Below are positions 10,025-58,071 of a stretch of 64,000 nucleotides of DNA, one piece after another. Location: assembly GCA_030154185.1 (NCBI GenBank), contig JASKKK010000006.1, positions 5,056 through 69,055 of the forward strand. Direction: 5' to 3'. The notes under the pieces are model-generated. The model saw nothing but the letters and a program-made list of their open reading frames with translations. It was not told the DNA's origin and ran no database searches. Within the stretch, counting starts at the first letter, position 1; each line of letters opens with the position of its first letter. This DNA is from Desulfuromonadales bacterium. Lineage in GTDB: Bacteria > Desulfobacterota > Desulfuromonadia > Desulfuromonadales > Syntrophotaleaceae. A program made the translations under genes and the position numbers.

Positions 10025-10798
10025 ATGAAAAGATGGAGCGTGTTGTTTCTCGCAATGTTCGTGTTGTGTGCGGGCCTGACTTCAACAGCTCAAGCCAAGA
10101 TCGAGGTCGAAGGCGATGTTTATGTGGGCATCTGGGACAAGTACATCTGGCGCGGATTCGACCAGAGCGGCAGCAAACCCACCATCCAGGGCGGCATCGA
10201 TTTGAGCACCCACGGATGGACCCTGAGCTACTGGGGCAACTGGCAGCTGAGTGAGGACAAGGAAGAAGGTTACGAATCGGGTGAAAGCAACGAAACCGAT
10301 ATCATCCTGACCTACAGCCATGACGTCACCGACTGGCTGAACGTTACCGTTGGCGATATCTGGTACGCCATCGACTTCGGTACCAAGGACGACCTCAATC
10401 GCGACGGTTCGGTCGATACCAACGAGGTCTTCGGCATTTTCAGCTTCGACACCCTGCTCTCCCCCAGCGTCAAGATCGCCTGGGACTGGGACAAGGCTGA
10501 TGAAGACGGCCTCTACTTCACCTTCGACATCGGCCACACCTTCGATTTGAGCCAGTGGGTACCCAAAACCGCCCTCAACCTGGCTGCCGAGCTTTCCTAC
10601 AACCTGCACAGCGATTACCTGGTAGGCGACTATGCCGGTTTCCACGATTACGAACTTTATGTCAGCCTCGACTACGCTCTGACCGATCAGCTGACTCTGA
10701 GCCCGACTTTCTGGTTCACCTCGCCGATCTGCAGCGCGGCCAAAGACACCATCGATACGGAAACCACCGGCGCCATCAACCTGACATTCGCGTTTTGA
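10025..10798 (+). CDS. outer-membrane beta-barrel protein, TorF/Gcw_chp-like putative porin (module A)
   Basis: SD ggagg at 10012. Signal peptide MKRWSVLFLAMFVLCAGLTSTAQA. Motif YIWRGFDQSGSKPTIQGGIDL. Alternating beta-strand pattern. C-terminal ..INLTFAF. Confidence 0.7.
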   Translation: MKRWSVLFLAMFVLCAGLTSTAQAKIEVEGDVYVGIWDKYIWRGFDQSGSKPTIQGGIDLSTHGWTLSYWGNWQLSEDKEEGYESGESNETDIILTYSHDVTDWLNVTVGDIWYAIDFGTKDDLNRDGSVDTNEVFGIFSFDTLLSPSVKIAWDWDKADEDGLYFTFDIGHTFDLSQWVPKTALNLAAELSYNLHSDYLVGDYAGFHDYELYVSLDYALTDQLTLSPTFWFTSPICSAAKDTIDTETTGAINLTFAF

Positions 10799-11014
10799 AC
10801 GTACAGGTTTGACAGTCTTCGGACGTACCAAAGCTACGGACATACAGTAGCATAAAGGAACTTTCCCAAGACGACCTTGTTATTGTTAACTTGTGCTACA
10901 GGCGGGGAGGCCTCCTCCCCGCCTCCACAGTTTGACCGGCCCCTTCGGTGCCGGCCAGGCAACAACCCAAGGCAACCCCAAAACTCCGCACACCGAAACG
11001 GCAGGAGGATCATC

Positions 11015-12124
11015 ATGAGAAAAGCACTTTCGGGAACCGCGCTTTTCGGCATCCTGGGCCTGGTCGCCATCGGCCTGGCCCTGGCACCGGGCTGCGGTAA
11101 AGCAAAAAAAGAAACATTGCGCATTACCTGCTGGGGAGGCTACGCCAAGCCGTATGTAGCCGACTTCCAGCAGCTGATCAAAGAAAAGCACAATATCGAC
11201 GTGGAAGTCCAAATCACCAACCCCACCGACCAGGACGAGTTTTTCATGGCGGTGAAAGACAATACGGCCGATCTCATATCGCCTCCCATCGAGTTGCCGA
11301 AGACTCCGCGATTCTATGCTTATTCGGCGGAAACCCCCTATCTGCAACCGGTCGACGTCGAAAACATCCCCAATCTCAAAAACATGATGCCGGTATTCCG
11401 CGACGATACAACTCCCATCTTCGCCGGAAAACGCTACGGCGTCCCCTACAATTGCGGACCTTACGGGCTGGCTTACAATGCCGACGTCATCGATGCAGCA
11501 CCGACCACGTGGAACATCCTGTGGGAGCCCCGATATGCCGGGAAGTACACCATAAACAACAACTTCCCCAAGGTTAACGTCTGGATCACCGCCCTGGCTC
11601 TCGGCTACGGGTATGACGATATTTTCGATATCGCACGTCTCGACAGGGAAAAGGTGCAGCGACAGCTCAACGTTCTGGCCAAAAATGCCAAAAGCCTGTG
11701 GGATGGAGCCGCCAACCCGGATGAATTCCCCGAACTGTCCCTGGCCACGACCTGGGGCTTTGCAGCGCAGCAGGCCAACCTGAAAGGCGGCAACTGGCTG
11801 CTGGCCAGTCCCAAGGAAGGCGGCACGGCATGGATCGATTGCTGGTACATCGGCGTCGGCGCCGAGGGTATAACCAAGACCCTGGCCGAAGAATGGATCA
11901 ACTTCATGCTCGATCCGGCCCGCCAGGCCGACGTGGTCAAGTCCCAGGGTGTTTCTCCGGTCATCGCCGACGTGGGGGACCTGCTCGATGCCAAGGACAA
12001 GGCCATGTTCCACGTAGGGGATGAAGCATACTTCAAGACCGTTGCATTATGGAGGGTCATGAGCGAGGAGACGGAAGAGGCATTCAACAACATGTGGGAG
12101 GAGGCCAAAACACACAGAGAGTAG
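11015..12124 (+). CDS. PotD/PotF-like periplasmic solute-binding lipoprotein, orphan (module A)
   Basis: SD aggagg at 11003. Signal ending ..LALAPGC. PotD-like blocks (W..LW.P.Y.G, PKEGGTAWIDCW, INFMLDP). No permease or ATPase adjacent. Confidence 0.8.
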   Translation: MRKALSGTALFGILGLVAIGLALAPGCGKAKKETLRITCWGGYAKPYVADFQQLIKEKHNIDVEVQITNPTDQDEFFMAVKDNTADLISPPIELPKTPRFYAYSAETPYLQPVDVENIPNLKNMMPVFRDDTTPIFAGKRYGVPYNCGPYGLAYNADVIDAAPTTWNILWEPRYAGKYTINNNFPKVNVWITALALGYGYDDIFDIARLDREKVQRQLNVLAKNAKSLWDGAANPDEFPELSLATTWGFAAQQANLKGGNWLLASPKEGGTAWIDCWYIGVGAEGITKTLAEEWINFMLDPARQADVVKSQGVSPVIADVGDLLDAKDKAMFHVGDEAYFKTVALWRVMSEETEEAFNNMWEEAKTHRE

Positions 12125-12232: not shown

Positions 12233-14494
12233 ATGCAACTCAAGTCAAAACTGTTTTACGGCATAATTTTTGGCCTGGCTCTGGCTTTTACAGCCAGCCT
12301 GGCCGGAGCTGTCGCCATCCGCGACGTCAAACCGGGCGAGGACGTATTCGATTACGTGAGCCGGATCAACGGCCAGTTTGATCAAACCCTTTATCAGCAG
12401 GTGGTCGGTGCCGCCAACTCCTTCAAGGAAGGGGACGAGGCCATCGGCGTGGCGGCCGACAACGACGCCACCCGCGAGAACGCCCGCAAATTGCTGGCCA
12501 ACACCAAAATCAAGGATCTGATGGCCAAGCCCCTGTTTGTGGACGCCCAGTACGACCTCATCACCAATACCACCGACATGGCCCAGTACAACAAGGTCAG
12601 GGACTGGACCCTGGGCGAATTGAAGGATTTCCTTCTCACCAAGTCCGAGGCTCAGATCAAGGGTATCATGTACGGGCTGCACAGCGATATCATCGCCAAC
12701 GTGGTCAAAATGATGTCCAACGAGGAGCTGACCCGCATCGGTCAGACGGTTTTCAACCCTCTGCCCGGCTCCAAGATCGGCGCCAAGGGTTATCTGAGCG
12801 CCCGCATCCAGCCCAACTCGCCGACGGATAATGTCGACGACATCGTCTGGCAGGTTTTCGACGCCTACTCCTATGGCGTTGGCGACATCGTCGTCGGTAC
12901 CAACCCCGTCGACAGCGAAGCAGCCAATATCGAGAACATCGAACTGGCCCTGCGCGACGTCATGCAGACTTTCGGCGTCGACAAGTACAACCCCTGGTGC
13001 GTGCTCTCGCACATCGACGTACAGGCCGAGGTCGAAAAGAACAACCCCGGCTCCACCGCTATCTGGTTCCAGAGTCTGGCCGGGGTGGTCGACGCCAACA
13101 AGACCTTCGACCTGACGCTGGAAAAGATGATGAATTATGCCAGCATGCGCAACGGCAAATACGGTCTCTACCATGAAACCGGCCAGGGTGCCGACTTCAC
13201 CAACGGTCACGCCAAGGGCTTCGACATGGTCGTTCACGAATCCCGCAAGTACGGCTTCGCCCGCGCCCTCAAGCAGCAGGTGGCGGCCGCCCAGATCGAC
13301 GGTCAGGGTGCCTGGTGCCATGTCAACGACGTGGCCGGCTTCATCGGGCCCGAGGTCTTCAAGACTCGGGAACAGCTGGTCCGCTGCTGCCTGGAAGACA
13401 TCGCCATGGGCAAGCTGCACGGCCTGATCATCGGCCTCGACATCTGTTCGACCCTGCACATGCCCGTCACCCTGGACGATCTCGACTGGTGCCAGGATCA
13501 GATCGCTCCGGCCAACCCCGGATACCTGATGGCCTTGCCGACCAAAAACGACCCGATGCTCAGCTACCTGACCACCGCCTTCCAGGACCATGTCCGGCTG
13601 CGCGAGAAGTTCGGCTACAAAGTCAACGACGACATGTGGAATTTCTTTAAGAAAATCGAAGTCATCGACGACAATGGCAAGCCGACGGAACACTTCGGCG
13701 ACCCGATCTGGGTCTATTACCAGTACCGCCTGGCCAAGGGTGACACCCGCAGCATGAAGGAAATCTACGCCGAAGGCCAACAGAAGGTCGAGGAAGTCCA
13801 GGCTCGCGGTGTGCCCCTGGCCATCGGCTACGGCGAAAACATATGGGATCTGGAGCCGAAGACCGACAAGCAGATCCACGACCTGTATAACGACGCCAAG
13901 ATCAGCCTGTGGGCCGAATTCACCCCGGAATTCATCGCCTCCATCCCCAACGCCGTAACCGTGCAGACCAAATCGGCCGACCGGGAAGACTATGTGGCGC
14001 ACCCGAGCACCGGCGAGGAATTCAATGATGCTTCCGTGGCCACCCTGGAGAAACTGCGGGCCAGCTGGGGCGGCAAGGCCCCGGACGTGCAGGTCATCAT
14101 TTCCGACGGTCTGAACGCCAAGGCCCTCATGGACGAAGATCACCTCATGCCCTTCATGGAAGAGCTGAAGGATCAGCTTGCCAAAGCCGGCTGGACCCTG
14201 GCCAAAGAAAACATCGTGGTCACCAGCGGCCGGGTGCGCGCCGGTTACCGGGCCGGCGAAACCCTGTTCACCGATCCCGACAGCACCCCGAAGGCCATCG
14301 TCCACATCATCGGCGAACGCCCGGGCAGCGGCCATCATGCCTATTCGGTCTACCTGACCCGTCTGGCTCCCGTCACCTGGTCCGCCGAGGGTGCCGACCA
14401 TGATGTGACCAAGGTCATCTCCGGCATTTCCAACACCGGTCTCGACCCGCGCAAAGCGGCACGTCAGGCCGTAAGACTGCTGCAGGAAATGTAA
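12233..14494 (+). CDS. fused EutB-EutC ethanolamine-ammonia-lyase-like enzyme with N-terminal signal peptide/anchor (module A)
   Basis: SD ggaggtg. N-terminus MQLKSKLFYGIIFGLALAFTASLAGAVAI. EutB blocks SARIQPN, GVGDIVVGTNPV, LYHETGQGA, VAGFIGPE, LEDIAMGKLHG. EutC blocks PDVQVIISDGLNAKA, GRVRAG, IIGERPGSGHH. Confidence 0.85.
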   Translation: MQLKSKLFYGIIFGLALAFTASLAGAVAIRDVKPGEDVFDYVSRINGQFDQTLYQQVVGAANSFKEGDEAIGVAADNDATRENARKLLANTKIKDLMAKPLFVDAQYDLITNTTDMAQYNKVRDWTLGELKDFLLTKSEAQIKGIMYGLHSDIIANVVKMMSNEELTRIGQTVFNPLPGSKIGAKGYLSARIQPNSPTDNVDDIVWQVFDAYSYGVGDIVVGTNPVDSEAANIENIELALRDVMQTFGVDKYNPWCVLSHIDVQAEVEKNNPGSTAIWFQSLAGVVDANKTFDLTLEKMMNYASMRNGKYGLYHETGQGADFTNGHAKGFDMVVHESRKYGFARALKQQVAAAQIDGQGAWCHVNDVAGFIGPEVFKTREQLVRCCLEDIAMGKLHGLIIGLDICSTLHMPVTLDDLDWCQDQIAPANPGYLMALPTKNDPMLSYLTTAFQDHVRLREKFGYKVNDDMWNFFKKIEVIDDNGKPTEHFGDPIWVYYQYRLAKGDTRSMKEIYAEGQQKVEEVQARGVPLAIGYGENIWDLEPKTDKQIHDLYNDAKISLWAEFTPEFIASIPNAVTVQTKSADREDYVAHPSTGEEFNDASVATLEKLRASWGGKAPDVQVIISDGLNAKALMDEDHLMPFMEELKDQLAKAGWTLAKENIVVTSGRVRAGYRAGETLFTDPDSTPKAIVHIIGERPGSGHHAYSVYLTRLAPVTWSAEGADHDVTKVISGISNTGLDPRKAARQAVRLLQEM

Positions 14495-14665: not shown

Positions 14666-15508
14666 ATGAACCATAATCTTCCCCCAGCACCACCACCGGA
14701 GACCGGTCCGCCGCCCCCACAGGATAAACGCCCCGGCCTGATCCGCGACGTCTTTCATAAAACACATCTGTGGGCCCATGCTCTGGTTATCAGTCGCTTC
14801 TACCGCTTCGGCGAAACCGGCAATCTCATGTATACCGTCGGCAAGAGCATCCTCGAGGGCGCGGTTCTGTACACCATGTTCAGCATGGCCCAGACCGAAT
14901 ACAAGGTCGCCGCCGTGCTGGGAGTCATGACCAAATATATCTATCCGGGCATTACCTTCGTCAGCAGCGTAAAAGTCTCTTCCTTTGTCGATCATCTGGA
15001 AAGATTTCCCGACAAAACCCTGCAACTCCAGAAACTCGTCGGAGGCGTCATTCTGGTCGGCATCGGCCAGGCTCTCGGCGCCCTGATGCTGCTGTTTTGC
15101 TATCCACCGTTTTTCAGGGTCTGCTTCGACAGCATGGGAATCAGCCGGTATCTGCTCGTTGGACTCTATCTCCTGCATCATATTTTCGACGGTTCGGCAC
15201 AGGTTGCCGAGGGAAGAATCTGGTTCAAACTCATCGAAATCAAATTGCGCCATGGCAATCTGAGACACATTTCGGAGAATTTCTGGGGCATCCATGCCAT
15301 GAGTCAGAACGTCCAGCTCATACTCGGTCTGATTCTGCTCTGGGGAACCACTCTGATCACGGGATTGTTCATAAACCGTCTCGATGCCGGCACCATGTGG
15401 ACGATCGTCCTGACGGGAACCCTTTTGACCGCCACCTCAAAATTCTGTCTGCCTATCGCATGGCACCTGCGCCTGCGCCATGAAACGAAGATGGACTCAC
15501 CCTCCTGA
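14666..15508 (+). CDS. polytopic membrane protein, unrecognised family (module A)
   Basis: Met43 of ORF 14540..15508. Pro-rich N-terminus followed by several hydrophobic helices. Paralogue at 41720..42565. Confidence 0.6.
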   Translation: MNHNLPPAPPPETGPPPPQDKRPGLIRDVFHKTHLWAHALVISRFYRFGETGNLMYTVGKSILEGAVLYTMFSMAQTEYKVAAVLGVMTKYIYPGITFVSSVKVSSFVDHLERFPDKTLQLQKLVGGVILVGIGQALGALMLLFCYPPFFRVCFDSMGISRYLLVGLYLLHHIFDGSAQVAEGRIWFKLIEIKLRHGNLRHISENFWGIHAMSQNVQLILGLILLWGTTLITGLFINRLDAGTMWTIVLTGTLLTATSKFCLPIAWHLRLRHETKMDSPS

Positions 15509-15614
15509 GCCATGGTGAAATCCCCCCATTTGGGGGATGGTTTTATATTCAGGTATCTGCTAGAAATAAGTCCAGGTAGCAGGAAATATAAAGAATCTGC
15601 TATTCACACAATTT

Positions 15615-15785
15615 GACAAGGGACGGGTGCTTAAGAAGCCTAACAGGGAAGACGGTGTAAATCCGTCGCGGTCCCGCCGCTGTAACCGGTGACGATGGCC
15701 ATATGATGCCACTTTTCGTACTCACGAAAGGGAAGGCGTGGCCGGCAGAATGACCCGGAAGCCAGAAGACCTGCCTGCCCCGCAT
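15615..15785 (+). promoter_or_regulatory. cobalamin riboswitch (leader of the cob operon)
   Basis: Conserved elements read directly: gggtgc..aacagggaagacggtgtaaatccgtcgcggtcccgccgctgtaacc..gccac..gggaaggc..B12 box agccagaagacctgcc. Confidence 0.85.
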
Positions 15786-15867
15786 ACGTGCTGTTGTGAC
15801 CTTCGAGGATTGAGGACCGACATTTCGTGCACGTGTGCAGATCGTTGGCTGGCGGATAAAAAACGGT

Positions 15868-15905
15868 ATCCCCGGAGCTTATGGCTCCGGGGATTTTTCT
15901 TTTTG
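15868..15905 (+). terminator. intrinsic terminator (riboswitch expression platform)
   Basis: atccccggagc-ttat-ggctccgggga followed by tttttcttttt, 12 nt before the first cob gene start. Confidence 0.7.
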
Positions 15906-15917
15906 AGGGAGGTAACC

Positions 15918-17114
15918 ATGCATCTGCCGATTCATCTATCCATCCGGGGAAGGCTTTGTCTGCTGATCGGCAAAGGCGACCTGATTCAGTCCCTCATCCC
16001 CCGGCTGAGCAGCCATGGCGCACAGCTGCGATGCATGGATATCCGGCAACGCTCCTATCGAAGAGAAGATCTCGAAGGCGCCTTTCTGGTCATTTCGGAC
16101 ACCGGGGACCCGACCCTCAACAGTCGGGTGGCCAACGATGCCCGCGATGCCGGCATACTTGTGATGCGTGGCGACCGGCCCTCCGCCGGAGACTTCACTC
16201 TGCCCATATTGCAAGCTGCCGGCTCCTCTCCCGGCATCCAGGCGTGTTTTCAGACCAAGGAGGGCAGCGAAGTCAACCTCCCCGGCAAAGTCTCCCTGAT
16301 CGGAGCCGGCCCCGGAGATCCCGGCCTGCTCACGGTCAAGGGAGCCGCCTGCCTTCAAACAGCCGACGTCGTTCTGTTCGATGCCATCGCCAACCCTTTG
16401 TTGGTGACGCGCTACGCCCCGCATGCCGAAAAAATCGACGTCGGCAAACGCAAAGGCAACTGCAGATACAGCCAGGAAGATATTATCCGACTTATGCTCG
16501 ATCTGGCGCGCCAGGGGCGCAATGTTGCGCGCCTCAAAGGGGGCGATCCAACCATTTTCGGACGTGGCGGCGAAGAGGCCCGTGCCCTGTTCGAAGCTGG
16601 CATCCCCTTTGAAATCGTACCGGGCGTTAGTTGCGTGGCCGCCGTACCGGCTTATGCAGGCATCCCTATCACCGATCGTGAATTCGGCTCGTCCTTCGGG
16701 GTCTACACCATTCATAAAAAGGGGGGAATCTGCCTTAACGAAGAACAATGGCGACGCATGGCTCAAGGTCCCGACACCCTGGTGCTGCTGATGGGTAAAA
16801 CCATGCTCGCTACGGCAGCCGAAAAGCTGATCCGCCACGGGCGTCCGGCTTCCACTCCCGTAGCCCTCATCACCGATGGCACGACCAGGAAACATAAACG
16901 TTTTCTCGGCACCCTGGCCACCATTGTCGATATCGTAGAGAAAAACGCCGACGGCAGCGAGGGCCCGGGTCTGATCGTAGTCGGTGGAGTGATTTCGGCA
17001 TTTTCGAGCATGGAATGGTTCCGTCCGGAGCCGGAGGCTGATCTTTCCGCTGCAACCGGTCAGGAAACAGCTTTCGCCATTTTAAACCGCCTTATGGAAG
17101 GGATCGCAGCATGA
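15918..17114 (+). CDS. cobA: uroporphyrinogen-III C-methyltransferase with short CysG/SirC-like N-terminal domain
   Basis: Start is Met61 of ORF 15738, downstream of the terminator, with SD gagggagg. SUMT blocks VSLIGAGPGDPGLLT, GGDPTIFGRGGEE, VPGVS. Confidence 0.85.
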   Translation: MHLPIHLSIRGRLCLLIGKGDLIQSLIPRLSSHGAQLRCMDIRQRSYRREDLEGAFLVISDTGDPTLNSRVANDARDAGILVMRGDRPSAGDFTLPILQAAGSSPGIQACFQTKEGSEVNLPGKVSLIGAGPGDPGLLTVKGAACLQTADVVLFDAIANPLLVTRYAPHAEKIDVGKRKGNCRYSQEDIIRLMLDLARQGRNVARLKGGDPTIFGRGGEEARALFEAGIPFEIVPGVSCVAAVPAYAGIPITDREFGSSFGVYTIHKKGGICLNEEQWRRMAQGPDTLVLLMGKTMLATAAEKLIRHGRPASTPVALITDGTTRKHKRFLGTLATIVDIVEKNADGSEGPGLIVVGGVISAFSSMEWFRPEPEADLSAATGQETAFAILNRLMEGIAA

Positions 17115-20092: not shown

Positions 20093-20327
20093 AGAAATAA
20101 GTCCGAGGACAAAGGACAAGAAGCCTCTGTCTTATAAGACCTATAGGACATATGGGGCGTATGGAAACAAAACCTCAGCTACGGATGACCGACGATAAAG
20201 CGGAAAACTGAGCGCAGCGAATCTTTTACGACTGTCCGGCGATAGCTCGACCCCGCGGTGTTGAGATCGAAATACCGGGCACCAAATATCAAAAACAAAA
20301 GTACTGAACCATGAAGGATATAAGACC

Positions 20328-23863: not shown

Positions 23864-23887
23864 GGCCCCGAGGCCCGAGGCCCGAGG
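23863..23887. repeat. tandem aggccc(c)g heptamer x3 directly after the cbiB stop
   Basis: Read directly: aggccccg aggcccg aggcccg agg. Confidence 0.8.
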
Positions 23888-23978
23888 AAAAATTTTCCGT
23901 TTTTATGATCCGTAAGTCCATAGGTCCTATGGGACCCATGAGGCCAAAGCATCGACAAACTTCGAAAGGTTGACAGCC

Positions 23979-24509: not shown

Positions 24510-24511
24510 CC

Positions 24512-28365: not shown

Positions 28366-28370
28366 AGGTT

Positions 28371-29586: not shown

Positions 29587-29591
29587 AACGC

Positions 29592-30788: not shown

Positions 30789-30792
30789 CGAC

Positions 30793-51216: not shown

Positions 51217-52239
51217 ATGAAATTCTCTCATTCCGAGTATTTCTGGCTGCTATTGATACTCATCCCCATCGGCTGGCGCGTACTTTCCACCGAGCGCTTT
51301 CTCGACCGCCTGCGACGGCATTTCAGGGCCGACATAAACGGCAGATCCCCATGGAGGCTGACCGGCCGCTGCCTGCTGCCATTGCTCGCCCTGACTTGTC
51401 TCGCAACGGCTCTGGCGGGTCCCCGGATCATGGTCATGCGTGCCGGCGATATCAGCGACAATCTTGTCATTGCCGTAGGCATCGACGTGAGCAAATCGAT
51501 GCTTGCCGAGGATGTGGTTCTGGAAAAACGGTCCAGAGATGAAGAAATGCCCCTTTCCAACCGCCTGAATGCCGCCCGGCGATTCGCCCTGACGCTTTTT
51601 GAGCACCTCGACGGAGAAAAAGTCGGTTTGTTCTTTTTTGCCCGAAACGGCATCGAAGTCGTATCCCCGACCCGCGATGTCGGTTTCCTGCGCTATATGA
51701 CCACCCATACCGACCTCGGCGACCTGACGGAATCCGGCAGCAACCTGATAGCAGCCATAGACAGCGGCATGATGATGGTCGACAGCCAACGGAACATACC
51801 GGCGAAAGCCGTCATCATTGTCACCGATGGCGAAGATACGGAAAACGACCGGCCGGCCATACTGCAAACCCTGTCGCGCGATTTCGGCGCCCAGACGCCC
51901 GTTTTTACCGTCGGTGTCGGCCGGACCAATGATGTTTTCATCCCCATCCGTCGCAAAGGCTCCGCCGACATCGACGGCTTTTACATGGACAATCAGGATA
52001 TTCCGCTCAAAACCCGCCAGGTTCCCCAGACCCTCGAAGAAATCTCTGCGGCCACCGGCGGAACGTACTTCGATCTCGACCGGAACAGCCCCGCCAAAGT
52101 GGTAGACAAGCTCATGCAGAAAATCGCCACGACGACAGCCGAGCCTGTGGACCTTCCGCCCCGCCGTGCGCCTTTTGACCTGTCCCCCCTGTTTCTTCTC
52201 GCCAGTCTGATTTTTTATATCCCCTTTATACTTTTATGA
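51217..52239 (+). CDS. VWA-domain membrane protein (BatB-like)
   Basis: Met41 of ORF 51097. TM helices at both ends. MIDAS motif IDVSKSM. Confidence 0.8.
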   Translation: MKFSHSEYFWLLLILIPIGWRVLSTERFLDRLRRHFRADINGRSPWRLTGRCLLPLLALTCLATALAGPRIMVMRAGDISDNLVIAVGIDVSKSMLAEDVVLEKRSRDEEMPLSNRLNAARRFALTLFEHLDGEKVGLFFFARNGIEVVSPTRDVGFLRYMTTHTDLGDLTESGSNLIAAIDSGMMMVDSQRNIPAKAVIIVTDGEDTENDRPAILQTLSRDFGAQTPVFTVGVGRTNDVFIPIRRKGSADIDGFYMDNQDIPLKTRQVPQTLEEISAATGGTYFDLDRNSPAKVVDKLMQKIATTTAEPVDLPPRRAPFDLSPLFLLASLIFYIPFILL

Positions 52240-52479
52240 AGATTCGGGGGCCGAAAAGGGTGCCAGAAACCCTGAAAACTTAAAAAACCACACTGTTTGC
52301 AAACCCCCACCCCCTTGTTTTTCGTCGTGTTTTCAAACACTTGGAGTGCAATAAAAATAATTAACATTAACCGAAAAGCGTATACCTCATCCGATATTGA
52401 ACTTTCGTTCTATTTTGTGCTATAAATTATCCAATCTGAAAAGCTCTTTGACATCAACATCAGCGATTGACGCAAAACT

Positions 52480-52580
52480 ACCAATCTCCGAGCCTCGCTG
52501 CCTACTGGGAAGGTCCCTATGGCGACAGGCCGACGGGTTCCGCTGGAAACAGCGGCGCCTCCCACCCTTGGAAAGGAGAT
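52480..52580 (+). promoter_or_regulatory. candidate Moco/Tuco (molybdenum/tungsten cofactor) riboswitch
   Basis: Contains aatCTCCGAGCCtcgctGCCTactGGGAAGGtCC...GCCTCCCACCcttGGAAAGGAGa. From memory these are the strings conserved in the Moco RNA motif. Lies 50 nt upstream of the AOR start. Confidence 0.5.
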
Positions 52581-52629
52581 TTTACCCGGAACCATTCCAG
52601 AAAGTGAAAGATTGGGAGGAAGTACAAGA

Positions 52630-54360
52630 ATGGACAAAATTTTGCGTGTAAACATGACGGACCTCACCTGCAAAGTTGAGCCCGTCCCCGCCGAGTTCGC
52701 CACCCTGGGTGGTCGTGCCCTGACCTCCACCATCGTGGCCGCGGAAGTGCCCCCGACCTGCCACGCCCTCGGCCCCAACAACAAACTGGTTTTCGCTCCC
52801 GGCATGCTGTCCGGCACCCCGGCTGCCAACTCCGGGCGCATGTCTGCCGGCGCCAAAAGCCCGCTGACCGGCACCATCAAGGAATCCAACTCCGGCGGCA
52901 CCACTGCACAGCAGTTCGCCAAAATGGGCATCAAAGCCATGATCGTCGAAGGCATGCCCAAGGATGACAAATGGTATCGCCTGCACGTCACCATGGACGG
53001 CGTTACCTTTGAAGACGCTTCCGGCCTGGTCGGCAAGCAGAACTTCGACGTCATCGACGCCATGAACGAGAAATACGACAAGAAGATCGGCGTCATGACC
53101 ATCGGCCTCCCCGGTGAAAACCGCCTGGCCTCAGCCAACATTTCGGTAAAGGACCCCGACCAGAAAATCCGCTCTCATGGTCGCGGCGGCCTCGGCGCCG
53201 TTATGGGTTCCAAACAGATCAAGTGCATCACCGTTGACGCCGCCGGCGCCGGCAAAGTCGAAATCGGCGACCCCGAGAAGTTCCGCGCCGCCGCCAAAGT
53301 GTTCGCCAAGGGTATGCTCGACCACCCCGTCAGCGGCGAAGGTCTGCCCACTTACGGCACCAACGTCCTGATCAACATCCTCAACGAAGCTGGCGGTCTG
53401 CCGACCAAAAACTTCAAGTACGGAACCTGCGAACACCACGACAAGGTCTCCGGCGAAACCATGTACGACACCATCGTCAAGCGCGGTGGCAAGCACAAGC
53501 ACGGCTGCCATGCCGGTTGTATCATTCAGTGCTCCCAGGAATACGTTGACGAGTCCGGCGCTTACATCACCTCCGGTTTCGAATACGAAACCGTCTGGGG
53601 CCTGGGCATCAACTGCCTGATCGAAAACCTCGACGACTGCGCCCGCATCGACAACGCCATGGACAACATCGGCATCGACTCCATCGAAGGTGCCGTGCTG
53701 ATCGCTGTCGCCATGGAAGCCGGCGTTATACCCTGGGGTGACGGCAAGGAAACCCTGCGCGTCATGAACGAGGAAATCGGCAAGTGTACTCCTCTCGGAC
53801 GCATCCTCGGCAACGGCACCGCATCCGTCGGCCAGGCTTACGGCCTGACCCGCGTACCGGTCGTTAAGGGCCAGGGCATCCCGGCTTACGACCCCCGTTC
53901 GGTCAAGGGTATCGGCATTACCTACGCTACCTCGACCCAGGGTGCCGACCACACCGCCGGTTACTCCATCGCCACCAACATCCTCAAGGTCGGTGGCTTT
54001 GTCGACCCCCTCCAGAAGGAAGGCCAGGTCGAACTGTCCCGCAACCTGCAGATCGCTACCACCGCTGTCGACAGCACCGGTATGTGTCTCTTCGTAGCCT
54101 TCCCCTGCCTCGACATCCCCGAAGTCATGCCCGCACTGGTAGACATGTGCGCTGCCCGCTTCGGCGTCGAAATGAGTGTCGACGATTTCGTCGGCATGGG
54201 CTCCAAGATCCTGAAAATGGAGAAGGAGTGGAACACCAAGGCCGGCTTCACCAACGAAGACGACCGTCTGCCCGAGTTCTTCGAGCTCGAGCCGATTCCG
54301 CCTCACAATGTCGTCTGGGATTTCACCGGCGAGGAAATCGACGAACTCTGGAACTTCTAA
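52630..54360 (+). CDS. aor: tungsten-type aldehyde:ferredoxin oxidoreductase
   Basis: SD gggagga. MDKILRVNMTDL.. N-terminus resembles Pyrococcus AOR. SAGAKSPLTG, GLPGEN and cluster/pterin blocks. Confidence 0.9.
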   Translation: MDKILRVNMTDLTCKVEPVPAEFATLGGRALTSTIVAAEVPPTCHALGPNNKLVFAPGMLSGTPAANSGRMSAGAKSPLTGTIKESNSGGTTAQQFAKMGIKAMIVEGMPKDDKWYRLHVTMDGVTFEDASGLVGKQNFDVIDAMNEKYDKKIGVMTIGLPGENRLASANISVKDPDQKIRSHGRGGLGAVMGSKQIKCITVDAAGAGKVEIGDPEKFRAAAKVFAKGMLDHPVSGEGLPTYGTNVLINILNEAGGLPTKNFKYGTCEHHDKVSGETMYDTIVKRGGKHKHGCHAGCIIQCSQEYVDESGAYITSGFEYETVWGLGINCLIENLDDCARIDNAMDNIGIDSIEGAVLIAVAMEAGVIPWGDGKETLRVMNEEIGKCTPLGRILGNGTASVGQAYGLTRVPVVKGQGIPAYDPRSVKGIGITYATSTQGADHTAGYSIATNILKVGGFVDPLQKEGQVELSRNLQIATTAVDSTGMCLFVAFPCLDIPEVMPALVDMCAARFGVEMSVDDFVGMGSKILKMEKEWNTKAGFTNEDDRLPEFFELEPIPPHNVVWDFTGEEIDELWNF

Positions 54361-54383: not shown

Positions 54384-54418
54384 GGTGGGCACCCCTCAGG
54401 GGGTGCCCACTCTTTTTA
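54384..54418 (+). terminator. intrinsic terminator after aor
   Basis: ggtgggcaccc-ctca-gggggtgcccac followed by tcttttta. Confidence 0.7.
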
Positions 54419-54475: not shown

Positions 54476-54700
54476 ATGAAAATTACTGTTAAACTCTTTG
54501 CAGGATTTCGTGACAACCGTTTCAAGGCCGCCGAGCAGGAATATCCTGACGCCGCCACCGTCGGCGATATTCTTACGGCTCTCGACATCAAAGGTCCGGA
54601 GCTTGGCGTCGCGCTGATAAACGGTCGCCATGTACCGCCTGAACATGTCCTGGAAGACGGACAGACCCTGTCCCTTTTCCCAAAGGTCGGAGGCGGTTAA
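54476..54700 (+). CDS. MoaD/ThiS-family ubiquitin-like sulfur carrier (C-terminal GG)
   Basis: 74 aa, MKITVKLFAGFRD...FPKVGGG. Confidence 0.7.
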   Translation: MKITVKLFAGFRDNRFKAAEQEYPDAATVGDILTALDIKGPELGVALINGRHVPPEHVLEDGQTLSLFPKVGGG

Positions 54701-54767
54701 TTTTCTCTATAACTGCTTGAATAAACTTTACAACTCGACAAAATCGCGTTAATTTAATCTTGTATAC

Positions 54768-54920
54768 ATCCGACGGTGCCTCAGGGCCTAACAGGGAAGA
54801 GGGGTGAGACTCCCCCGCGGACCCGCCACTGTAAGCGAGGACGAGAGATCAATCAGCCACTGGCATCAACGCTGGGAAGGCGATCTCGAGAATGATTCGC
54901 AAGCCAGTATACCTGCCGAT
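54768..54920 (+). promoter_or_regulatory. cobalamin riboswitch (leader of the btuB-like gene)
   Basis: ggtgcc..aacagggaagaggggtgagactcccccgcggacccgccactgtaag..gccactgg..ctgggaaggc..B12 box agccagtatacctgcc. Downstream, ctcctcttc (55027-55035) can pair with the SD aagaggag (55057-55065). Confidence 0.85.
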
Positions 54921-55074
54921 TCGGATCCCCCACATCATCTTCCCCGGGCCATGGGAAGGTGGGCTGAAGCGGCCATCGCTGTTGCAGGTGCGCATATTTA
55001 ATGCAGCCACATGCATGCAACCGTGCTCCTCTTCCTGCTCCCTCCAGCCTGGGCGCAAAGAGGAGTTTTTCTTT

Positions 55075-57015
55075 ATGGTTAAGATCCCGTCTTTGGCCCT
55101 GATCGGCATGCTGATGCTACCCTTTTCCGCATCTGCCATCACCTCTGAACTTACCTCCCTCGAACCGGTTGTCGTAACGGCAACCAAGCTGGAAACCCCG
55201 GTAAGTGAAATTGCAAGTTCGGTGACAGTCATCACCGCCGAAGAAATTGAAAACAGACAGCCCACCAGTGCCCTCGATGTATTGCGCACCGTCCCGGGAT
55301 TGGATGTCGTGCGTCAGGGCGGCCTCGGTCAGCAGACCTCGGTGTTTTTGCGCGGTGGCAATTCGACGCACACCCTTGTGCTTGTAGATGGGATCGAAAT
55401 GAATGACCCGGCCAACCCAGGGCGCTCTTTTGATTTTGCCACACTTGGCACGGACAACATCGAACGCATCGAGATCGTCCGAGGCCCCGGCAGCACGCTT
55501 TACGGTTCGGATGCCATTGGTGGGGTAATCAACATCATTACTCGAAAAGGGTCCGGCAAACCAACTATCACCCTCTCTGCCGAAGGTGGCAGCTTCGAGA
55601 CCCATCAGGAAAAGTTTTCCTTGAGGGGCGGCAACGATCTCTGGAATTACTCGCTGGCTGCCTCCTTCATAGAATCGAACGGGATATCCGCAGCCGATGA
55701 AAGATACGGGAACTCGGAACGTGACGGATACGACCGCACCTCCGTATCGTCCCGCATCGGAATCACCCCCACAACCAACTTCGATCTCGACTTTTTCCTG
55801 CGCTATTTTGACTCCGAAGCCGATCTGGACACCTTTGCCGGTCCGTTTGGCGACGACCCCAACAACACCTTCGATTCGGAGGCTCTTTTCCTACGTCTGC
55901 AGGGCCGGTTGTTCTTGCTGGATGACTTATGGGAGCAGAAGCTTGGCTTCGCCCTGAGCGACTACGACAGAGAGAACCGCGACGAGACCGATGCCCTTCA
56001 CCCCTTTGACAGCAGCCTGACGACCTACGATGGGCGCTTGTACAAAGTCGACTGGCAGCACAATCTGTATCTGCACCCGACCAACACCCTGACAGTCGGC
56101 ATAGAGTACGAAAAAGAAGAAGCCGAGAATACATCCCAATACTTCTATGAGAATCCTCTCTGGAACACCAACGACAAGTTCGACAAGAAAAGTGTGGAGA
56201 CGACCGGATACTACGTTCAGGACCAAGTCAAACTCTGGCAGGATTTCATTACCACGGTTGGACTGCGGGTCGACGACCATGAGGAATTCGGCGCACGTTT
56301 GACATACCGCATTACCAGCAGCTATCTGTTCCGCCAGACCGGAACGCGCATCAAAGGCACTTATGGAACAGCTTTCAAGGCACCGACCCTGGCCCAACTC
56401 TATGAGAATTCCACTTACGTTCTCGGAAATCCCGACCTGACCCCGGAAAAGAGCCGCGGCTGGGATATCGGCATCGAGCAGGGCTTTTGGGATAACCGGG
56501 CGTCTTTTGGGGTCACCTACTTCGAAAATCATTTCGAGGACCTCATTAATACCTTTTACAACCCGCTTAGTTTTAAGTCCGAATATGAAAACATAGACGA
56601 GGCCCAGTCAAAAGGCATAGAGATTGTCGCATCCGTGCGCCCGGTAGACGACCTTACCTTCTCTGCCAGCTACACCTACACCGATACGGAAAACCGCACC
56701 ACCGGAGAGAGACTGTTGCGTCGCCCGCTTCACAAATACAATCTCAATGTCAATTACCGCTTTCTTGATCGCGCCAACGCCAACCTCGATATTTTCTATT
56801 TTGGCGAACGCGAGGACCTCGACCTCTACGATTGGACCGAAACCAAAACCCTTGGCGCCTATACCGTGGTCAATCTGGCCCTTTCCTACGAAATCAGCGA
56901 ACATTTCCGAATTCACGGCCGAGTGGAAAACTTGTTCGACGAGAAATACGAAGAGGTCAATGGCTTCGGCACCCCCGGCATCGCGGGATACGCAGGCGCA
57001 AGCCTGACATTTTAA
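55075..57015 (+). CDS. btuB: TonB-dependent receptor, BtuB-like (cobalamin)
   Basis: Signal MVKIPSLALIGMLMLPFSASA. TonB box region EPVVVTATK. Plug and barrel. C-terminal ..YAGASLTF. Riboswitch upstream. Confidence 0.8.
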   Translation: MVKIPSLALIGMLMLPFSASAITSELTSLEPVVVTATKLETPVSEIASSVTVITAEEIENRQPTSALDVLRTVPGLDVVRQGGLGQQTSVFLRGGNSTHTLVLVDGIEMNDPANPGRSFDFATLGTDNIERIEIVRGPGSTLYGSDAIGGVINIITRKGSGKPTITLSAEGGSFETHQEKFSLRGGNDLWNYSLAASFIESNGISAADERYGNSERDGYDRTSVSSRIGITPTTNFDLDFFLRYFDSEADLDTFAGPFGDDPNNTFDSEALFLRLQGRLFLLDDLWEQKLGFALSDYDRENRDETDALHPFDSSLTTYDGRLYKVDWQHNLYLHPTNTLTVGIEYEKEEAENTSQYFYENPLWNTNDKFDKKSVETTGYYVQDQVKLWQDFITTVGLRVDDHEEFGARLTYRITSSYLFRQTGTRIKGTYGTAFKAPTLAQLYENSTYVLGNPDLTPEKSRGWDIGIEQGFWDNRASFGVTYFENHFEDLINTFYNPLSFKSEYENIDEAQSKGIEIVASVRPVDDLTFSASYTYTDTENRTTGERLLRRPLHKYNLNVNYRFLDRANANLDIFYFGEREDLDLYDWTETKTLGAYTVVNLALSYEISEHFRIHGRVENLFDEKYEEVNGFGTPGIAGYAGASLTF

Positions 57016-57165
57016 CCAAAACCCATGCGTCCGGCATTCAAGACGTTGATTCCGACACACCGGGATGCGAGACGCAGCCGAGCGACCACCTCCGGACCTG
57101 GGATTTCCAGTCCGGAGGATGGTCCCCATATCCGGAAGCGCTGTAAAAAGGCGAGTATCGCTGTC

Positions 57166-58071
57166 ATGTTGTCTCAGGAAACGTTTTTCTACTGGATCAT
57201 TCTTTCCCTCGGCATCCACGTCGCCGCCCTGAGCTTCTGCCCGCCCCCCGCAACCTGGACCGCACCCAGGCCGGGACCGATTACCGTGGATCTGCTTTAC
57301 GGACCGGGCGGGAGCGAAAAAAAGCAACCGGGCGAGACCGCAGGCTCCGACGGCCCCGGAAGCGAGCCCCTTGCCCCTACAACTGCGCACAAGCAACCGG
57401 TTGCGCCAGCAGCTCCTGATAAAATTGAGCACCCGGAGGCACTCCCGACCGTACCAGAACCGCAGGAAAAGGCTGTTCCCAAAACATCCGCGCCGGTACC
57501 CGTAGAAAAACCGGTACCTGTAGAAAAACCGGCCCCCGAAAAGAAACCGCCCCCCCCCTCAACGGTCCCTGCAGAAGAAGTGGCTGATATACCGGAAACG
57601 CCAACACCAGCCACGGCAACCGATGCAGGCAACGAAAGCCAGGACGGTCAAGCCACTGCTGTCCAAGGCTCTTCCATCGAGGAAGCTCCCTCATACGGTC
57701 CCGCTCATGGGGCAGGCAAGGCCTTGGCCCCCGGGCACGGCACGTCCACCGGCAGCGGCTTCGGACACGGCGAGTCCGGAGGAGGAGGCATTCGCGCCAC
57801 GCCGCTCGGCTACGGTGAAAATCCGCCCATGCCCTATCCGCGCACTGCCCGGCGCAGAGGCTGGGAAGGTGAAGTGTTGTTGCGGGTAGACGTTTCCGCC
57901 GCAGGCACCGTTACCGATATCCAGCTGGAAAAATCCAGCGGTTACCGTATCCTGGACAATACAGCCCGCAGGGAGGTGTTCAACTGGCGATTCAGTCCTG
58001 CAAGCCGCAATGGTAAACCCAGGGCGGATACGGTACTGGTCCCCGTACATTTCAAACTTCATCAGCGTTGA
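57166..58071 (+). CDS. tonB: TonB family energy transducer
   Basis: N-terminal TM helix, Pro/Glu/Lys-rich spacer (EKPVPVEKPAPEKKPPPP), C-terminal TonB domain (YPRTARRRGWEGEVLLRVDV). Confidence 0.8.
   Translation: MLSQETFFYWIILSLGIHVAALSFCPPPATWTAPRPGPITVDLLYGPGGSEKKQPGETAGSDGPGSEPLAPTTAHKQPVAPAAPDKIEHPEALPTVPEPQEKAVPKTSAPVPVEKPVPVEKPAPEKKPPPPSTVPAEEVADIPETPTPATATDAGNESQDGQATAVQGSSIEEAPSYGPAHGAGKALAPGHGTSTGSGFGHGESGGGGIRATPLGYGENPPMPYPRTARRRGWEGEVLLRVDVSAAGTVTDIQLEKSSGYRILDNTARREVFNWRFSPASRNGKPRADTVLVPVHFKLHQR

What the first reader, a model, noticed from the sequence alone, without database searches (positions are those of the whole stretch)
10025..58071. 48-kb B12-centred region: consumer modules, de novo synthesis, import, and an aldehyde sink, but only synthesis and uptake carry riboswitches
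The order is: module A, cobalamin riboswitch plus the cob/cbi operon, module B, BtuDFC-like importer, Bat-like operon, Moco/Tuco-type leader plus tungsten AOR plus MoaD-like gene, then cobalamin riboswitch plus BtuB-like receptor plus TonB. If the lyases make acetaldehyde, AOR is the obvious oxidising partner (aldehyde to acid with ferredoxin) in place of EutE/EutG. I found no B12 box upstream of either lyase module. This fits the usual logic in which B12 represses supply genes, not consumers. The whole arrangement argues that the lyase modules are genuine AdoCbl users and are important enough to be linked to their cofactor supply.
Basis: inference. Interest (0 to 1): 0.6.

Follow-up and report, generated by a model that had tools for sequence, protein, structure and literature searches.

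The report
Known B12-linked ethanolamine lyase supercluster
This 48-kb stretch is a real, conserved gene cluster that places two vitamin-B12-dependent ethanolamine-splitting enzymes beside B12 synthesis, B12 uptake and an aldehyde-oxidising enzyme, but the same layout, riboswitches included, was already published in 2012 for the close relative Pelobacter (Syntrophotalea) carbinolicus.

Summary
Rfam finds three leaders: cobalamin at 15608-15792 and 54760-54933, and Moco at 52474-52594. It finds none before either lyase module, even at E<=10. Pfam and NCBIfam confirm the gene order. The order is porin, binding protein, fused EutBC and a membrane protein, present twice at 63-90% identity. Between the two copies lies a ~21-kb cob operon. 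After them come an ABC importer, a MoxR/DUF58/VWA set, AOR, a MoaD-like gene, a BtuB-like receptor and TonB. Congeners keep the whole order. Aklujkar et al. 2012 tabulate it for P. carbinolicus (Pcar_0453-0493), riboswitches included, and read it the same way.

- The importer and the "Bat-like operon" belong to a collinear cassette (EutBC, membrane protein, ABC, MoxR/VWA) found in 66 loci across Thermodesulfobacteriota.
- The ABC importer has no riboswitch.
- The lyase carries a conserved Sec-type signal peptide (20/20 N-termini).
- No EutA or microcompartment shell gene was found in the genome.
- AOR-family genes sit beside the cassette in at least three different arrangements. This supports AOR as an aldehyde sink, but the genome also holds two more AORs and eight aldehyde-dehydrogenase-family hits.

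No expression data could be obtained. The scan's earlier notes concern this same window only.

The parts
7910..9619 (+). B12-binding radical SAM protein (B12-binding + Radical_SAM + DUF4080). It is a conserved upstream neighbour of module A and lies just outside the finding's coordinates.
   Evidence: Pfam. The same position is kept in G003, G004, G005, G009 and several related-loci loci.
10025..10798 (+). Module A porin (TorF/Gcw_chp family) with a signal peptide.
   Evidence: Pfam PF09694 and TIGR02001. N-terminus seen. 90% identical to the module B copy.
11015..12124 (+). Module A PotD-like solute-binding protein (SBP_bac_6/8). It has a signal peptide and a possible lipobox, and no cognate permease.
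12233..14494 (+). Fused EutB-EutC ethanolamine ammonia-lyase A (753 aa) with an N-terminal Sec-type signal peptide.
   Evidence: Pfam EutB 488 bits and EutC 122 bits. NCBIfam EutB 652 bits. Alignment to 3abo_A. GGAGG lies 7 nt before the ATG. Signal peptide conserved in 20/20 homologues.
14666..15508 (+). Unknown helical membrane protein A ('mem' family).
   Evidence: No Pfam or NCBIfam hit. The family has 113 clusters. AF2 model pLDDT 91.8 with weak MFS-like matches.
15520..15538 (+). Terminator-like hairpin closing module A.
15608..15792 (+). Cobalamin riboswitch aptamer leading the cob operon.
   Evidence: RF00174, 115.9 bits.
15868..15894 (+). Strong intrinsic terminator (12-bp stem plus T run). 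It is the likely expression platform of the riboswitch.
15900..36594 (+). Anaerobic cob/cbi operon: CysG-like, CobC, CobU, CobT, CobS, CobD-CobQ fusion, CbiB, CobO, CbiA, CbiC, CbpB-type radical SAM, CbiK, Gate-domain membrane protein, CbiL, CbiD, CbiE, CbiF, CbiG, CbiH, CbiJ.
   Evidence: Pfam and NCBIfam. The exact start of the first gene was not fixed.
37120..37893 (+). Module B porin (TorF/Gcw_chp).
38069..39187 (+). Module B PotD-like binding protein.
39301..41568 (+). Fused EutB-EutC lyase B (755 aa) with a signal peptide.
41720..42565 (+). Membrane protein B. Its stop overlaps the start of the ABC ATPase.
42562..43338 (+). ABC ATPase. The best model is the corrinoid ABC transporter ATPase, below its cut-off.
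43310..44383 (+). Peripla_BP_2 binding protein with a signal peptide ('BtuF-like'; substrate unproven). The start may be 43280 instead.
44367..45422 (+). FecCD-type permease. The best model is BtuC, below its cut-off.
45482..46534 (+). MoxR-class AAA+ ATPase (AAA_3).
46531..47394 (+). DUF58/VWA protein.
47426..49180 (+). Unknown 584-aa protein with a signal or anchor sequence and one later TM segment. A BatD-like resemblance is a weak lead only.
49207..50319 (+). BatA-like membrane VWA protein.
50409..51209 (+). Unknown 266-aa membrane-anchored protein. A TPR-like resemblance is a weak lead only.
51217..52239 (+). BatB-like membrane VWA protein.
52474..52594 (+). Moco/Tuco riboswitch aptamer.
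   Evidence: RF01055, 67.8 bits.
52630..54360 (+). Aldehyde:ferredoxin oxidoreductase (AOR clade proper), with no signal peptide.
   Evidence: Pfam AFOR_N and AFOR_C. PDB 9mqx, 9g7j, 1aor and 8c0z at E 1e-92 to 1e-75.
54384..54411 (+). Strong intrinsic terminator after AOR.
54476..54700 (+). ThiS/MoaD-like 74-aa protein.
54760..54933 (+). Second cobalamin riboswitch aptamer.
   Evidence: RF00174, 99.7 bits.
55075..57015 (+). BtuB-like TonB-dependent receptor.
   Evidence: Pfam Plug and barrel domains. TIGR01779 is the best model at 377 bits, below its cut-off of 599.7.
57025..58071 (+). TonB-family protein.
   Evidence: TonB_C.

Best explanation
The region is the Syntrophotalea/Pelobacter-type ethanolamine-catabolism supercluster. 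It holds two paralogous ethanolamine ammonia-lyase modules, the cofactor's de novo synthesis operon, corrinoid uptake genes and an acetaldehyde-oxidising tungsten-type AOR.

Most likely working, with shown and inferred steps marked:
1. Ethanolamine enters through the TorF-type porin (inferred).
2. The fused EutBC, which keeps the complete EAL substrate pocket (shown by alignment), splits it into acetaldehyde and ammonium using AdoCbl (inferred from family membership).
3. Acetaldehyde is oxidised to acetate by AOR with ferredoxin. Aldehyde and alcohol dehydrogenases encoded elsewhere may take part as well (inferred).
4. B12 sufficiency shuts off the cob operon through a terminator-type riboswitch, and the BtuB-like receptor through a second riboswitch (aptamers and one terminator shown; regulation inferred).
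5. The consumer modules, the ABC importer and the MoxR/VWA genes carry no riboswitch (shown).
6. AOR is gated separately by a Moco/Tuco riboswitch (aptamer shown).

The ABC importer and the MoxR/DUF58/VWA genes are part of the lyase cassette, not independent neighbours (shown by conservation in 66 loci).
For: - Domain and RNA assignments.
- No riboswitch before the modules here, in four relatives or in seven distant cassette loci.
- The third cobalamin riboswitch of the genome also precedes a TonB-dependent receptor.
- The positions aligned to E. coli EutB R160, Q162, N193, E287, D362 and M392 are identical in copy A. The same motifs are kept in copy B. The role of these residues is from my own knowledge of the E. 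coli EAL structures.
- The full 48-kb order is kept in G004 and G005. A rearranged order is kept in G003 and G009.
- Cassette collinearity: the membrane protein is followed by the ABC ATPase in 53/57 loci with enough DNA, by MoxR in 40/48 and by the last VWA gene in 31/36. EutBC lies directly upstream in 46/53.
- AOR-family genes lie directly upstream of EutBC, divergent from it, or directly after the last VWA gene, in different lineages.
- The same cluster and the same reading are published for P. carbinolicus, which grows on ethanolamine (PMC3543383).
Against: - There are no expression data for this organism. No RNA run holds the stretch.
- AOR has its own leader and is followed by a strong terminator.
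- It has two paralogues at 74-77% identity in the same genome.
- Its P. carbinolicus orthologue is induced during ethanol oxidation, so it is not dedicated to the lyases.
- Eight Aldedh-family hits offer other aldehyde sinks.
- The ABC importer's substrate is not established.
- If the lyase is exported, as its N-terminus predicts, the way AdoCbl reaches it is unexplained.
- The genome is about 90% complete, so 'no EutA, no shell proteins' means not found, not absent.
Confidence: 0.8

Rival explanations
1. AOR, MoaD, BtuB and TonB are only neighbours. On this reading AOR is a general acetaldehyde/ethanol-oxidation enzyme with no special tie to the lyases.
For: - AOR has its own Moco leader and its own terminator.
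- The genome holds three near-equivalent AOR paralogues, and another one also has a Moco riboswitch.
- aorA2 of P. carbinolicus is induced 11.6- to 15.3-fold in ethanol oxidation (PMC3543383).
- Only 10 of 66 cassette loci have an AOR within the 10-kb flanks.
Against: - AOR-family genes of different subfamilies (28-64% identity to the window's AOR) lie beside the cassette in at least three different arrangements in distant lineages. This is hard to explain by inheritance alone.
- The position after the last VWA gene is kept in Syntrophotalea, in Desulfuromonas sp. CSMB_57 and in an unclassified Thermodesulfobacteriota MAG.
Confidence: 0.25
2. The hydrophobic N-terminus of EutBC is not an export signal. 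The enzyme would work in the cytoplasm, perhaps tethered to the membrane. The ABC importer would simply bring in B12 for it, and the MoxR/VWA genes would be unrelated housekeeping 'Bat' genes.
For: - No AdoCbl enzyme exported by the Sec route is known (own knowledge).
- AdoCbl is made in the cytoplasm by the CobO adenosyltransferase of the same cluster.
- The N-termini have no twin-arginine motif.
- Bat-type operons are widespread.
Against: - All 20 extracted N-termini have a basic n-region, a hydrophobic core and a small-x-small site. This is followed at once by a conserved mature N-terminus, while the peptide itself diverges.
- Charge distribution predicts N-in/C-out (inference).
- The co-conserved partners are envelope proteins: a porin, two signal-peptide binding proteins and membrane VWA proteins.
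- No shell-protein gene was found, so an encapsulation peptide is unlikely.
- The MoxR/VWA genes are collinear with the lyase in 31-40 of 36-48 loci.
Confidence: 0.2
3. One or both lyase paralogues act on a substrate other than ethanolamine. Candidates are choline, as proposed in 2012, or another amino alcohol.
For: - The two paralogues have been kept since before the split of two genera: A-type and B-type orthologues are found in G005 and G009.
- Each is paired with its own diverged binding protein.
- The 2012 paper suggested choline.
Against: - All six pocket residues are identical to E. coli EAL in both copies.
- The genome has two glycyl-radical enzymes. By own knowledge, that is the enzyme class now known to cleave choline.
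Confidence: 0.15
4. The ABC importer of the cassette does not carry corrinoids. It would carry another metal chelate such as haem, a siderophore or a cobalt complex.
For: - The nearest solved binding proteins are iron-complex and haem binders, and E. coli BtuF is not among the hits.
- All NCBIfam matches are below their cut-offs.
- The 2012 paper calls it an uncharacterised metal ABC transporter and notes that no CbiMNQO cobalt transporter is present.
- The membrane protein plus ABC unit also occurs alone beside trp genes.
Against: - The best-scoring models for the permease and the ATPase are the BtuC and corrinoid ATPase models.
- It is constantly linked to a B12 enzyme.
Confidence: 0.3

Closest known systems
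Ethanolamine ammonia-lyase gene cluster of Pelobacter (Syntrophotalea) carbinolicus DSM 2380, Pcar_0453-Pcar_0493 (Aklujkar et al. 2012, BMC Genomics 13:690, Table S2)
   Same: - Same gene order and orientation.
- Duplicated fused eutBC at about 70% identity.
- Duplicated binding, membrane and unknown (porin) proteins.
- cob genes between the two copies.
- Metal ABC transporter, AAA_3 ATPase, VWFA proteins, aorA-2, moaD-2, btuB and TonB.
- Riboswitches R0069 (cobalamin), R0068 (Moco) and R0067 (cobalamin) in the same three places.
- Proteins 60-92% identical to the window's.
   Different: The window comes from another species of the genus, a MAG. The paper reads the membrane and binding proteins as an uptake system. 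In the text I read, it does not note the signal peptide on EutBC or the wider cassette conservation.
Canonical eut operon of Salmonella/E. coli (EutBC, EutA, EutT, EutE, EutG, shell proteins, EutR)
   Same: It uses the same enzyme family with an identical substrate pocket. The product acetaldehyde needs a sink. The pathway depends on B12.
   Different: - Here EutB and EutC are fused and carry a signal peptide.
- No EutA was found: the only hit is FtsA.
- No BMC shell genes were found.
- No EutT, EutE or EutG lies in the cluster.
- AOR takes their place, with an ABC importer and a MoxR/VWA set.
mxaFJGIRSACKLD system for periplasmic PQQ methanol dehydrogenase
   Same: This is an analogy only. 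Both have an exported cofactor enzyme, an orphan binding-protein-like partner (MxaJ) and a MoxR, DUF58/VWA, unknown, VWA, unknown, VWA gene series needed for cofactor loading (PMC12276312). The window shows the same series of gene types.
   Different: Homology of the two unknown proteins to MxaA and MxaK was not shown. The cofactor and the enzyme differ. No experiment ties MoxR/VWA proteins to B12 enzymes.
Bat (Bacteroides aerotolerance-type) MoxR/DUF58/BatA/BatB operons
   Same: It has MoxR AAA_3, DUF58 and two membrane VWA proteins whose best NCBIfam models are BatA and BatB.
   Different: The scores (58.7 and 46.5 bits) are far below the BatA and BatB cut-offs (380 and 350). Here the set is collinear with a lyase and an ABC importer.
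E. coli btuB with its cobalamin riboswitch, and BtuCDF
   Same: A riboswitch precedes a TonB-dependent receptor whose best model is TonB-B12. The importer is a type II ABC importer of the FecCD/Peripla_BP_2 class.
   Different: All scores are below the equivalog cut-offs. The ABC importer is co-transcribed with the consumer and has no riboswitch.
Tungsten AORs (Pyrococcus furiosus 1AOR, Aromatoleum 8C0Z) and the Moco RNA motif
   Same: There is a full-length match to solved AORs and an RF01055 leader.
   Different: The metal and substrate were not tested. It is one of three paralogues in the genome.

Membership tests
Ethanolamine ammonia-lyase (EutB/EutC) | EutB and EutC domains above the curated cut-offs | tested here: met
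   PF06751 scores 488 and 495 bits. PF05985 scores 122 and 116 bits. NF011649 scores 652 bits against a cut-off of 554.
Ethanolamine ammonia-lyase (EutB/EutC) | Substrate-pocket residues of E. coli EutB (R160, Q162, N193, E287, D362, M392) | tested here: met
   They are identical in the alignment to 3abo_A. The same motifs are present in copy B. The residue roles come from my own knowledge, not from a paper read here.
Ethanolamine ammonia-lyase (EutB/EutC) | AdoCbl-dependent deamination of ethanolamine | not testable with these tools
   This needs an enzyme assay. P. carbinolicus grows on ethanolamine (PMC3543383).
Canonical eut system | Separate EutB and EutC subunits in the cytoplasm or a microcompartment | tested here: not met
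   The lyase is a single 753/755-aa fusion with a signal peptide.
Canonical eut system | EutA reactivase present | tested here: not met
   The only PF06277 hit in the 90%-complete genome is a 45-residue stretch inside FtsA.
Canonical eut system | BMC shell proteins present | tested here: not met
   PF00936 was not found in the own genome.
Cobalamin riboswitch RF00174 | Covariance-model score above the gathering threshold, upstream of a B12-related gene | tested here: met
   The scores are 115.9 and 99.7 bits against 31.5. The hits lie upstream of the cob operon and of the BtuB-like gene. The first is followed by a terminator at 15868-15894.
Moco/Tuco riboswitch RF01055 | Score above the gathering threshold, upstream of a molybdopterin enzyme | tested here: met
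   The score is 67.8 bits against 36, upstream of AOR. Whether it is the Moco or the Tuco variant was not examined.
BtuCDF vitamin B12 ABC importer | Equivalog-level match of the ATPase, permease and binding protein | tested here: inconclusive
   The best models are the corrinoid ATPase (228 bits, cut-off 537) and BtuC (252 bits, cut-off 461). The binding protein's best models are a PGF-CTERM binding protein and IsdE, and its PDB neighbours bind iron complexes or haem.
BtuB | TonB-dependent receptor with an equivalog-level match to the B12 receptor model | tested here: inconclusive
   TIGR01779 is the best model at 377 bits, below its cut-off of 599.7. The riboswitch upstream supports the assignment.
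Bat/MoxR-VWA operon | MoxR AAA_3 ATPase, DUF58 and membrane VWA proteins in series | tested here: met
   The specific BatA and BatB models score below their cut-offs.
Mxa-type maturation system | Homology of the accessory proteins to MxaA, MxaK and MxaJ | not tested
   No Mxa sequences were compared. This is an analogy of gene types only.
Aldehyde:ferredoxin oxidoreductase | AFOR_N and AFOR_C domains with a full-length match to solved AORs | tested here: met

The most novel reading that the evidence does not exclude
The real unit may be an 11-13-gene cassette spread through Thermodesulfobacteriota and built around a Sec-exported, fused EutBC. That would make it an AdoCbl enzyme working in the periplasm, with the periplasm taking the place of the microcompartment in keeping acetaldehyde out of the cytoplasm.

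On this reading the accessory genes serve the exported enzyme:
- The unknown membrane protein and the translationally coupled corrinoid-type ABC importer move or recover the cofactor across the inner membrane.
- The MoxR/DUF58/VWA set, with VWA domains predicted to face outward, and the orphan PotD-like protein load or reactivate the enzyme in place of EutA. This would parallel what MxaRSACKL and MxaJ do for periplasmic methanol dehydrogenase.

The cob operon, BtuB-TonB and AOR are lineage-specific additions to this core.
Probability: 0.4. Interest if true: 0.8.

Novelty: already known. Interest (0 to 1): 0.3.

Why it matters
The region-level finding adds little. It is another species carrying a cluster that was mapped and read the same way in 2012. 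It is still a clean example of riboswitch logic, in which supply genes are repressed by B12 and consumers are not.

The part worth further work is the core cassette. A signal-peptide-bearing B12 lyase is always found with an unknown membrane protein, a type II ABC importer and a MoxR/VWA set, and never with EutA or shell proteins. If the enzyme is really periplasmic, it would be the first Sec-exported AdoCbl enzyme. That would raise a testable question: how is a cytoplasmically made, damage-prone cofactor delivered and renewed outside the cytoplasm?

Tried and rejected
- RNA evidence: no RNA holder is listed for 39301-49300. The 20 holders are DNA or probable-DNA metagenomes.
- The EutA 'hit' in the own genome is FtsA.
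- Function of the membrane protein:
  - It has no Pfam or NCBIfam family.
  - Foldseek against the PDB gave nothing at E<=0.001, only weak MFS-like rows.
  - The ESM Atlas shape search gave MFS transporters at TM 0.55-0.63, which is a lead only.
  - A profile search of 1.84 billion representatives found only 30 proteins. Some are 570-875-aa proteins with a similar domain. They have no Pfam family and uninformative neighbours.
- The two unknown Bat-series proteins gave only weak atlas leads: BatD at 0.81 and TPR at 0.83-0.86.
- Two apparent AOR adjacencies (G047, G042) were dropped because the contig lengths showed a different contig.
- A specialised 'cassette AOR' clade was considered and rejected. 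The window's AOR is closer to its own-genome paralogues (74-77%) than to cassette-linked AORs elsewhere (28-64%).
- Haveman et al. 2008 (microarrays) is not held.
- Literature searches for a periplasmic EAL, or for EAL with MoxR/VWA, returned only the 2012 genome paper.

Full report
**Observation.** Rfam at gathering threshold reports three structured leaders in the window. They are Cobalamin (RF00174) at 15608-15792 and 54760-54933, and the Moco motif (RF01055) at 52474-52594, all on the + strand.
- Module A holds a TorF/Gcw_chp porin, a PotD-like binding protein, a single-chain EutB-EutC fusion of 753 aa and a protein with no family.
- A roughly 21-kb anaerobic cob/cbi operon follows. Its genes are CysG-like, CobC, CobU, CobT, CobS, a CobD-CobQ fusion, CbiB, CobO, CbiA, CbiC, a radical SAM/SPASM enzyme, CbiK, a Gate-domain membrane protein, and CbiL, D, E, F, G, H and J.
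- Module B repeats the four genes of module A.
- Next come an ABC ATPase, a Peripla_BP_2 protein and a FecCD permease.
- Then come MoxR, DUF58, an unknown protein, VWA, an unknown protein and VWA.
- The region ends with an AFOR_N/AFOR_C AOR, a 74-aa ThiS/MoaD-like protein, a TonB-dependent receptor whose best model is TonB-B12, and TonB.

The two modules are paralogous. Identity is 90% for the porin, 74% for the binding protein, 69% for the lyase and 63% for the membrane protein.

**Riboswitch distribution.** A permissive scan (E<=10) of 9500-12400 and 36500-39400 finds no riboswitch ahead of either module. A terminator-like hairpin at 15520-15538 closes module A. A strong terminator at 15868-15894 follows the first aptamer and is its likely expression platform. 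The genome's third cobalamin riboswitch, on another contig, also precedes a TonB-dependent receptor. So in this 90%-complete genome all three precede supply genes.

One correction to the title is needed. The inner-membrane ABC importer is also an uptake system, and it has no riboswitch. Its start codon overlaps the stop of module B's membrane protein as ATGA at 42562-42565, behind a GAGGGAG. It is therefore expressed with the consumer.

**Synteny.** I ran tblastn with the window's proteins against regions from relatives.
- G004 and G005, of the same genus, keep the entire order from the B12-radical-SAM gene to TonB.
- G003 keeps module A, riboswitch, CobD/CobQ, module B, ABC, MoxR/VWA, AOR, MoaD, BtuB and TonB.
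- G009, of another genus, has two complete copies of module, ABC and MoxR/VWA. One is followed by AOR, MoaD, BtuB and TonB. The other is preceded by the cbi genes.

The riboswitches sit in the same three places in these genomes, and none precedes a module.

**Prior publication.** G005 is a single contig of 3,665,893 bp. The membrane protein's closest named homologue is Pcar_0490 of Syntrophotalea carbinolica DSM 2380, on a contig of that same length. I infer that G005 is that strain. Aklujkar et al. 2012 (PMC3543383) describe the following for it:
- Duplicate eutBC genes that are 70% identical, 'each an unusual fusion'.
- Duplicated binding, multi-transmembrane and unknown proteins.
- Cobalamin genes between the two copies.
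- aorA2 inside a 43-gene co-directional cluster.
- The absence of eutA.

[quoted passage not shown] Their Table S2 lists the riboswitches Pcar_R0069, R0068 and R0067 in the same three positions, together with moaD-2, btuB and TonB. The finding's observation and its interpretation are thus already in the literature for a congener.

**Are the lyases genuine AdoCbl ethanolamine lyases?** The domain scores are far above their cut-offs. In the alignment to E. coli EutB (3abo_A), the positions R160, Q162, N193, E287, D362 and M392 are identical in copy A. The same motifs are present in copy B. The role of these residues is from my own knowledge of the E. coli structures. This supports ethanolamine, or a very close amino alcohol, for both copies. 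It weakens the 2012 suggestion that one copy cleaves choline. The genome also has two glycyl-radical enzymes.

**AOR as the aldehyde sink.** The evidence in favour is comparative. I searched one genome per species for the membrane-protein family and obtained 66 loci. An AOR-family gene lies within 10 kb in ten of them, either directly upstream of EutBC on the same strand or divergent from it. In two further lineages an AOR follows the last VWA gene directly, as in the window. In Desulfuromonas sp. CSMB_57 it does so together with MoaD, BtuB and TonB. These AORs are 28-64% identical to the window's, so different family members have been placed beside the cassette more than once.

The evidence against a dedicated role is as follows.
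- The window's AOR has its own Moco leader and a strong terminator at 54384-54411.
- It is 74-77% identical to two other AORs in the same genome, one of which also has a Moco leader.
- The genome has eight Aldedh-family hits.
- The P. carbinolicus orthologue aorA2 is induced 11.6- to 15.3-fold during ethanol oxidation.

I read AOR as a plausible partner that is not exclusive to the lyases. 'In place of EutE/EutG' is not shown.

**What the region-level reading missed.**

First, the lyase is predicted to be exported. Both copies begin at an ATG behind a good Shine-Dalgarno sequence. Each carries a basic n-region, a hydrophobic core and a small-x-small site. In all 20 homologue N-termini I could extract, the same architecture is present. 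The peptide sequence diverges, while the residues right after the predicted cleavage site are conserved. None has a twin-arginine motif. No shell-protein gene was found in the genome, which makes an encapsulation peptide unlikely. The only EutA match is FtsA.

Second, the ABC importer and the MoxR/DUF58/VWA genes are part of the lyase cassette. Among loci with enough downstream DNA:
- The membrane protein is followed by the ABC ATPase in 53 of 57.
- It is followed by MoxR in 40 of 48.
- It is followed by the last VWA gene in 31 of 36.
- EutBC lies directly upstream in 46 of 53.

Three of the four exceptions to the first count are the 'module A' type, which is confined to this genus. In Desulfobacterales and other distant lineages the same set is kept, with the PotD-like gene moved to the end. 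The tightest pair is the membrane protein with the ABC importer. That pair also occurs alone beside trp genes.

Third, the importer's substrate is unproven. The best models are corrinoid-type but score below their cut-offs. The nearest solved binding proteins bind iron complexes or haem.

**Mechanism.** The region-level mechanism given under Best explanation seems secure at about 0.8.

The more novel reading is a periplasmic AdoCbl lyase served by a cofactor-handling importer and a MoxR/VWA maturation set. It rests on the signal peptide, the envelope location of the partners and the collinearity. By the positive-inside rule, the VWA domains of the two BatA/BatB-like proteins would face the periplasm (inference). 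The gene series MoxR, DUF58, unknown, VWA, unknown, VWA, together with an orphan binding-protein-like gene, mirrors the mxaRSACKL and mxaJ genes. Those genes were recently shown to be needed for cofactor loading of periplasmic methanol dehydrogenase (PMC12276312). This is an analogy of gene types, not demonstrated homology.

The membrane protein gives a confident all-helical model (pLDDT 91.8) with only weak MFS-like resemblance. It has no informative remote relatives.

**Verdict.** As a finding it is already known from P. carbinolicus. The interest lies in the exported-lyase cassette. Earlier first-reader notes on this same window also flagged that cassette, and I checked the point independently here.

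Noticed in passing
window 26950-28365: The radical SAM/SPASM gene inside the cob operon is an equivalog-level match to TIGR04163, 'peptide-modifying radical SAM enzyme CbpB' (778 bits against a cut-off of 375). NCBIfam therefore already names this peptide-maturase pair found in cobalamin operons.
   Followed up: partly
window 28693-30788: From its first start, CbiK has a hydrophobic N-terminus ending in a Cys, which looks like a lipoprotein signal. The next gene is a six-TM Gate-domain protein with its own signal-like N-terminus. This would be a second possibly envelope-located tetrapyrrole protein in the region.
   Followed up: no
window 7910-9619: A B12-binding radical SAM protein (DUF4080) sits directly upstream of the A-type module in G003, G004, G005, G009, Desulfuromonas sp. 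CSMB_57 and other loci. It is a third B12 consumer linked to the cluster.
   Followed up: partly
window 10025-10798 vs 37120-37893: The two porin copies are 90% identical, while the other three module genes are 63-74% identical. This suggests gene conversion between the modules.
   Followed up: no
G009 (S. acetylenivorans by the name on P0019): loci L026-L029: This genome has two complete cassettes, each with its own ABC importer and MoxR/VWA set. The A-type cassette is followed by AOR-MoaD-BtuB-TonB. The B-type cassette is preceded by the cbi genes. The window's arrangement looks like a merger of the two in which the A-type copy lost its importer and MoxR/VWA genes.
   Followed up: partly
L098 9110-12776: The membrane protein plus the ABC ATPase, binding protein and permease stand alone here, beside trp genes, an Rrf2 regulator and a cysteine desulfurase. 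There is no lyase and no MoxR/VWA set.
   Followed up: partly
proteins P0122, P0125, P0127, P0128, P0130: Proteins of about 650-675 aa carry a domain related to the membrane protein (E 1e-23 to 1e-14) and have no Pfam family.
   Followed up: partly
own genome C115:11699-11899: The third cobalamin riboswitch of the genome lies here, upstream of another TonB-dependent receptor (Plug domain).
   Followed up: yes
L093 and L095: Cassette-bearing contigs are labelled Chlorobiaceae and Acidobacteria MAGs. This could be mis-binning or transfer outside Thermodesulfobacteriota.
   Followed up: no
window 39301-49300: Near-identical DNA (60-99% of sampled words) is held by metagenomes from subsurface, oil-field, wastewater, aquatic and rock samples across 12 studies.
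   Followed up: no
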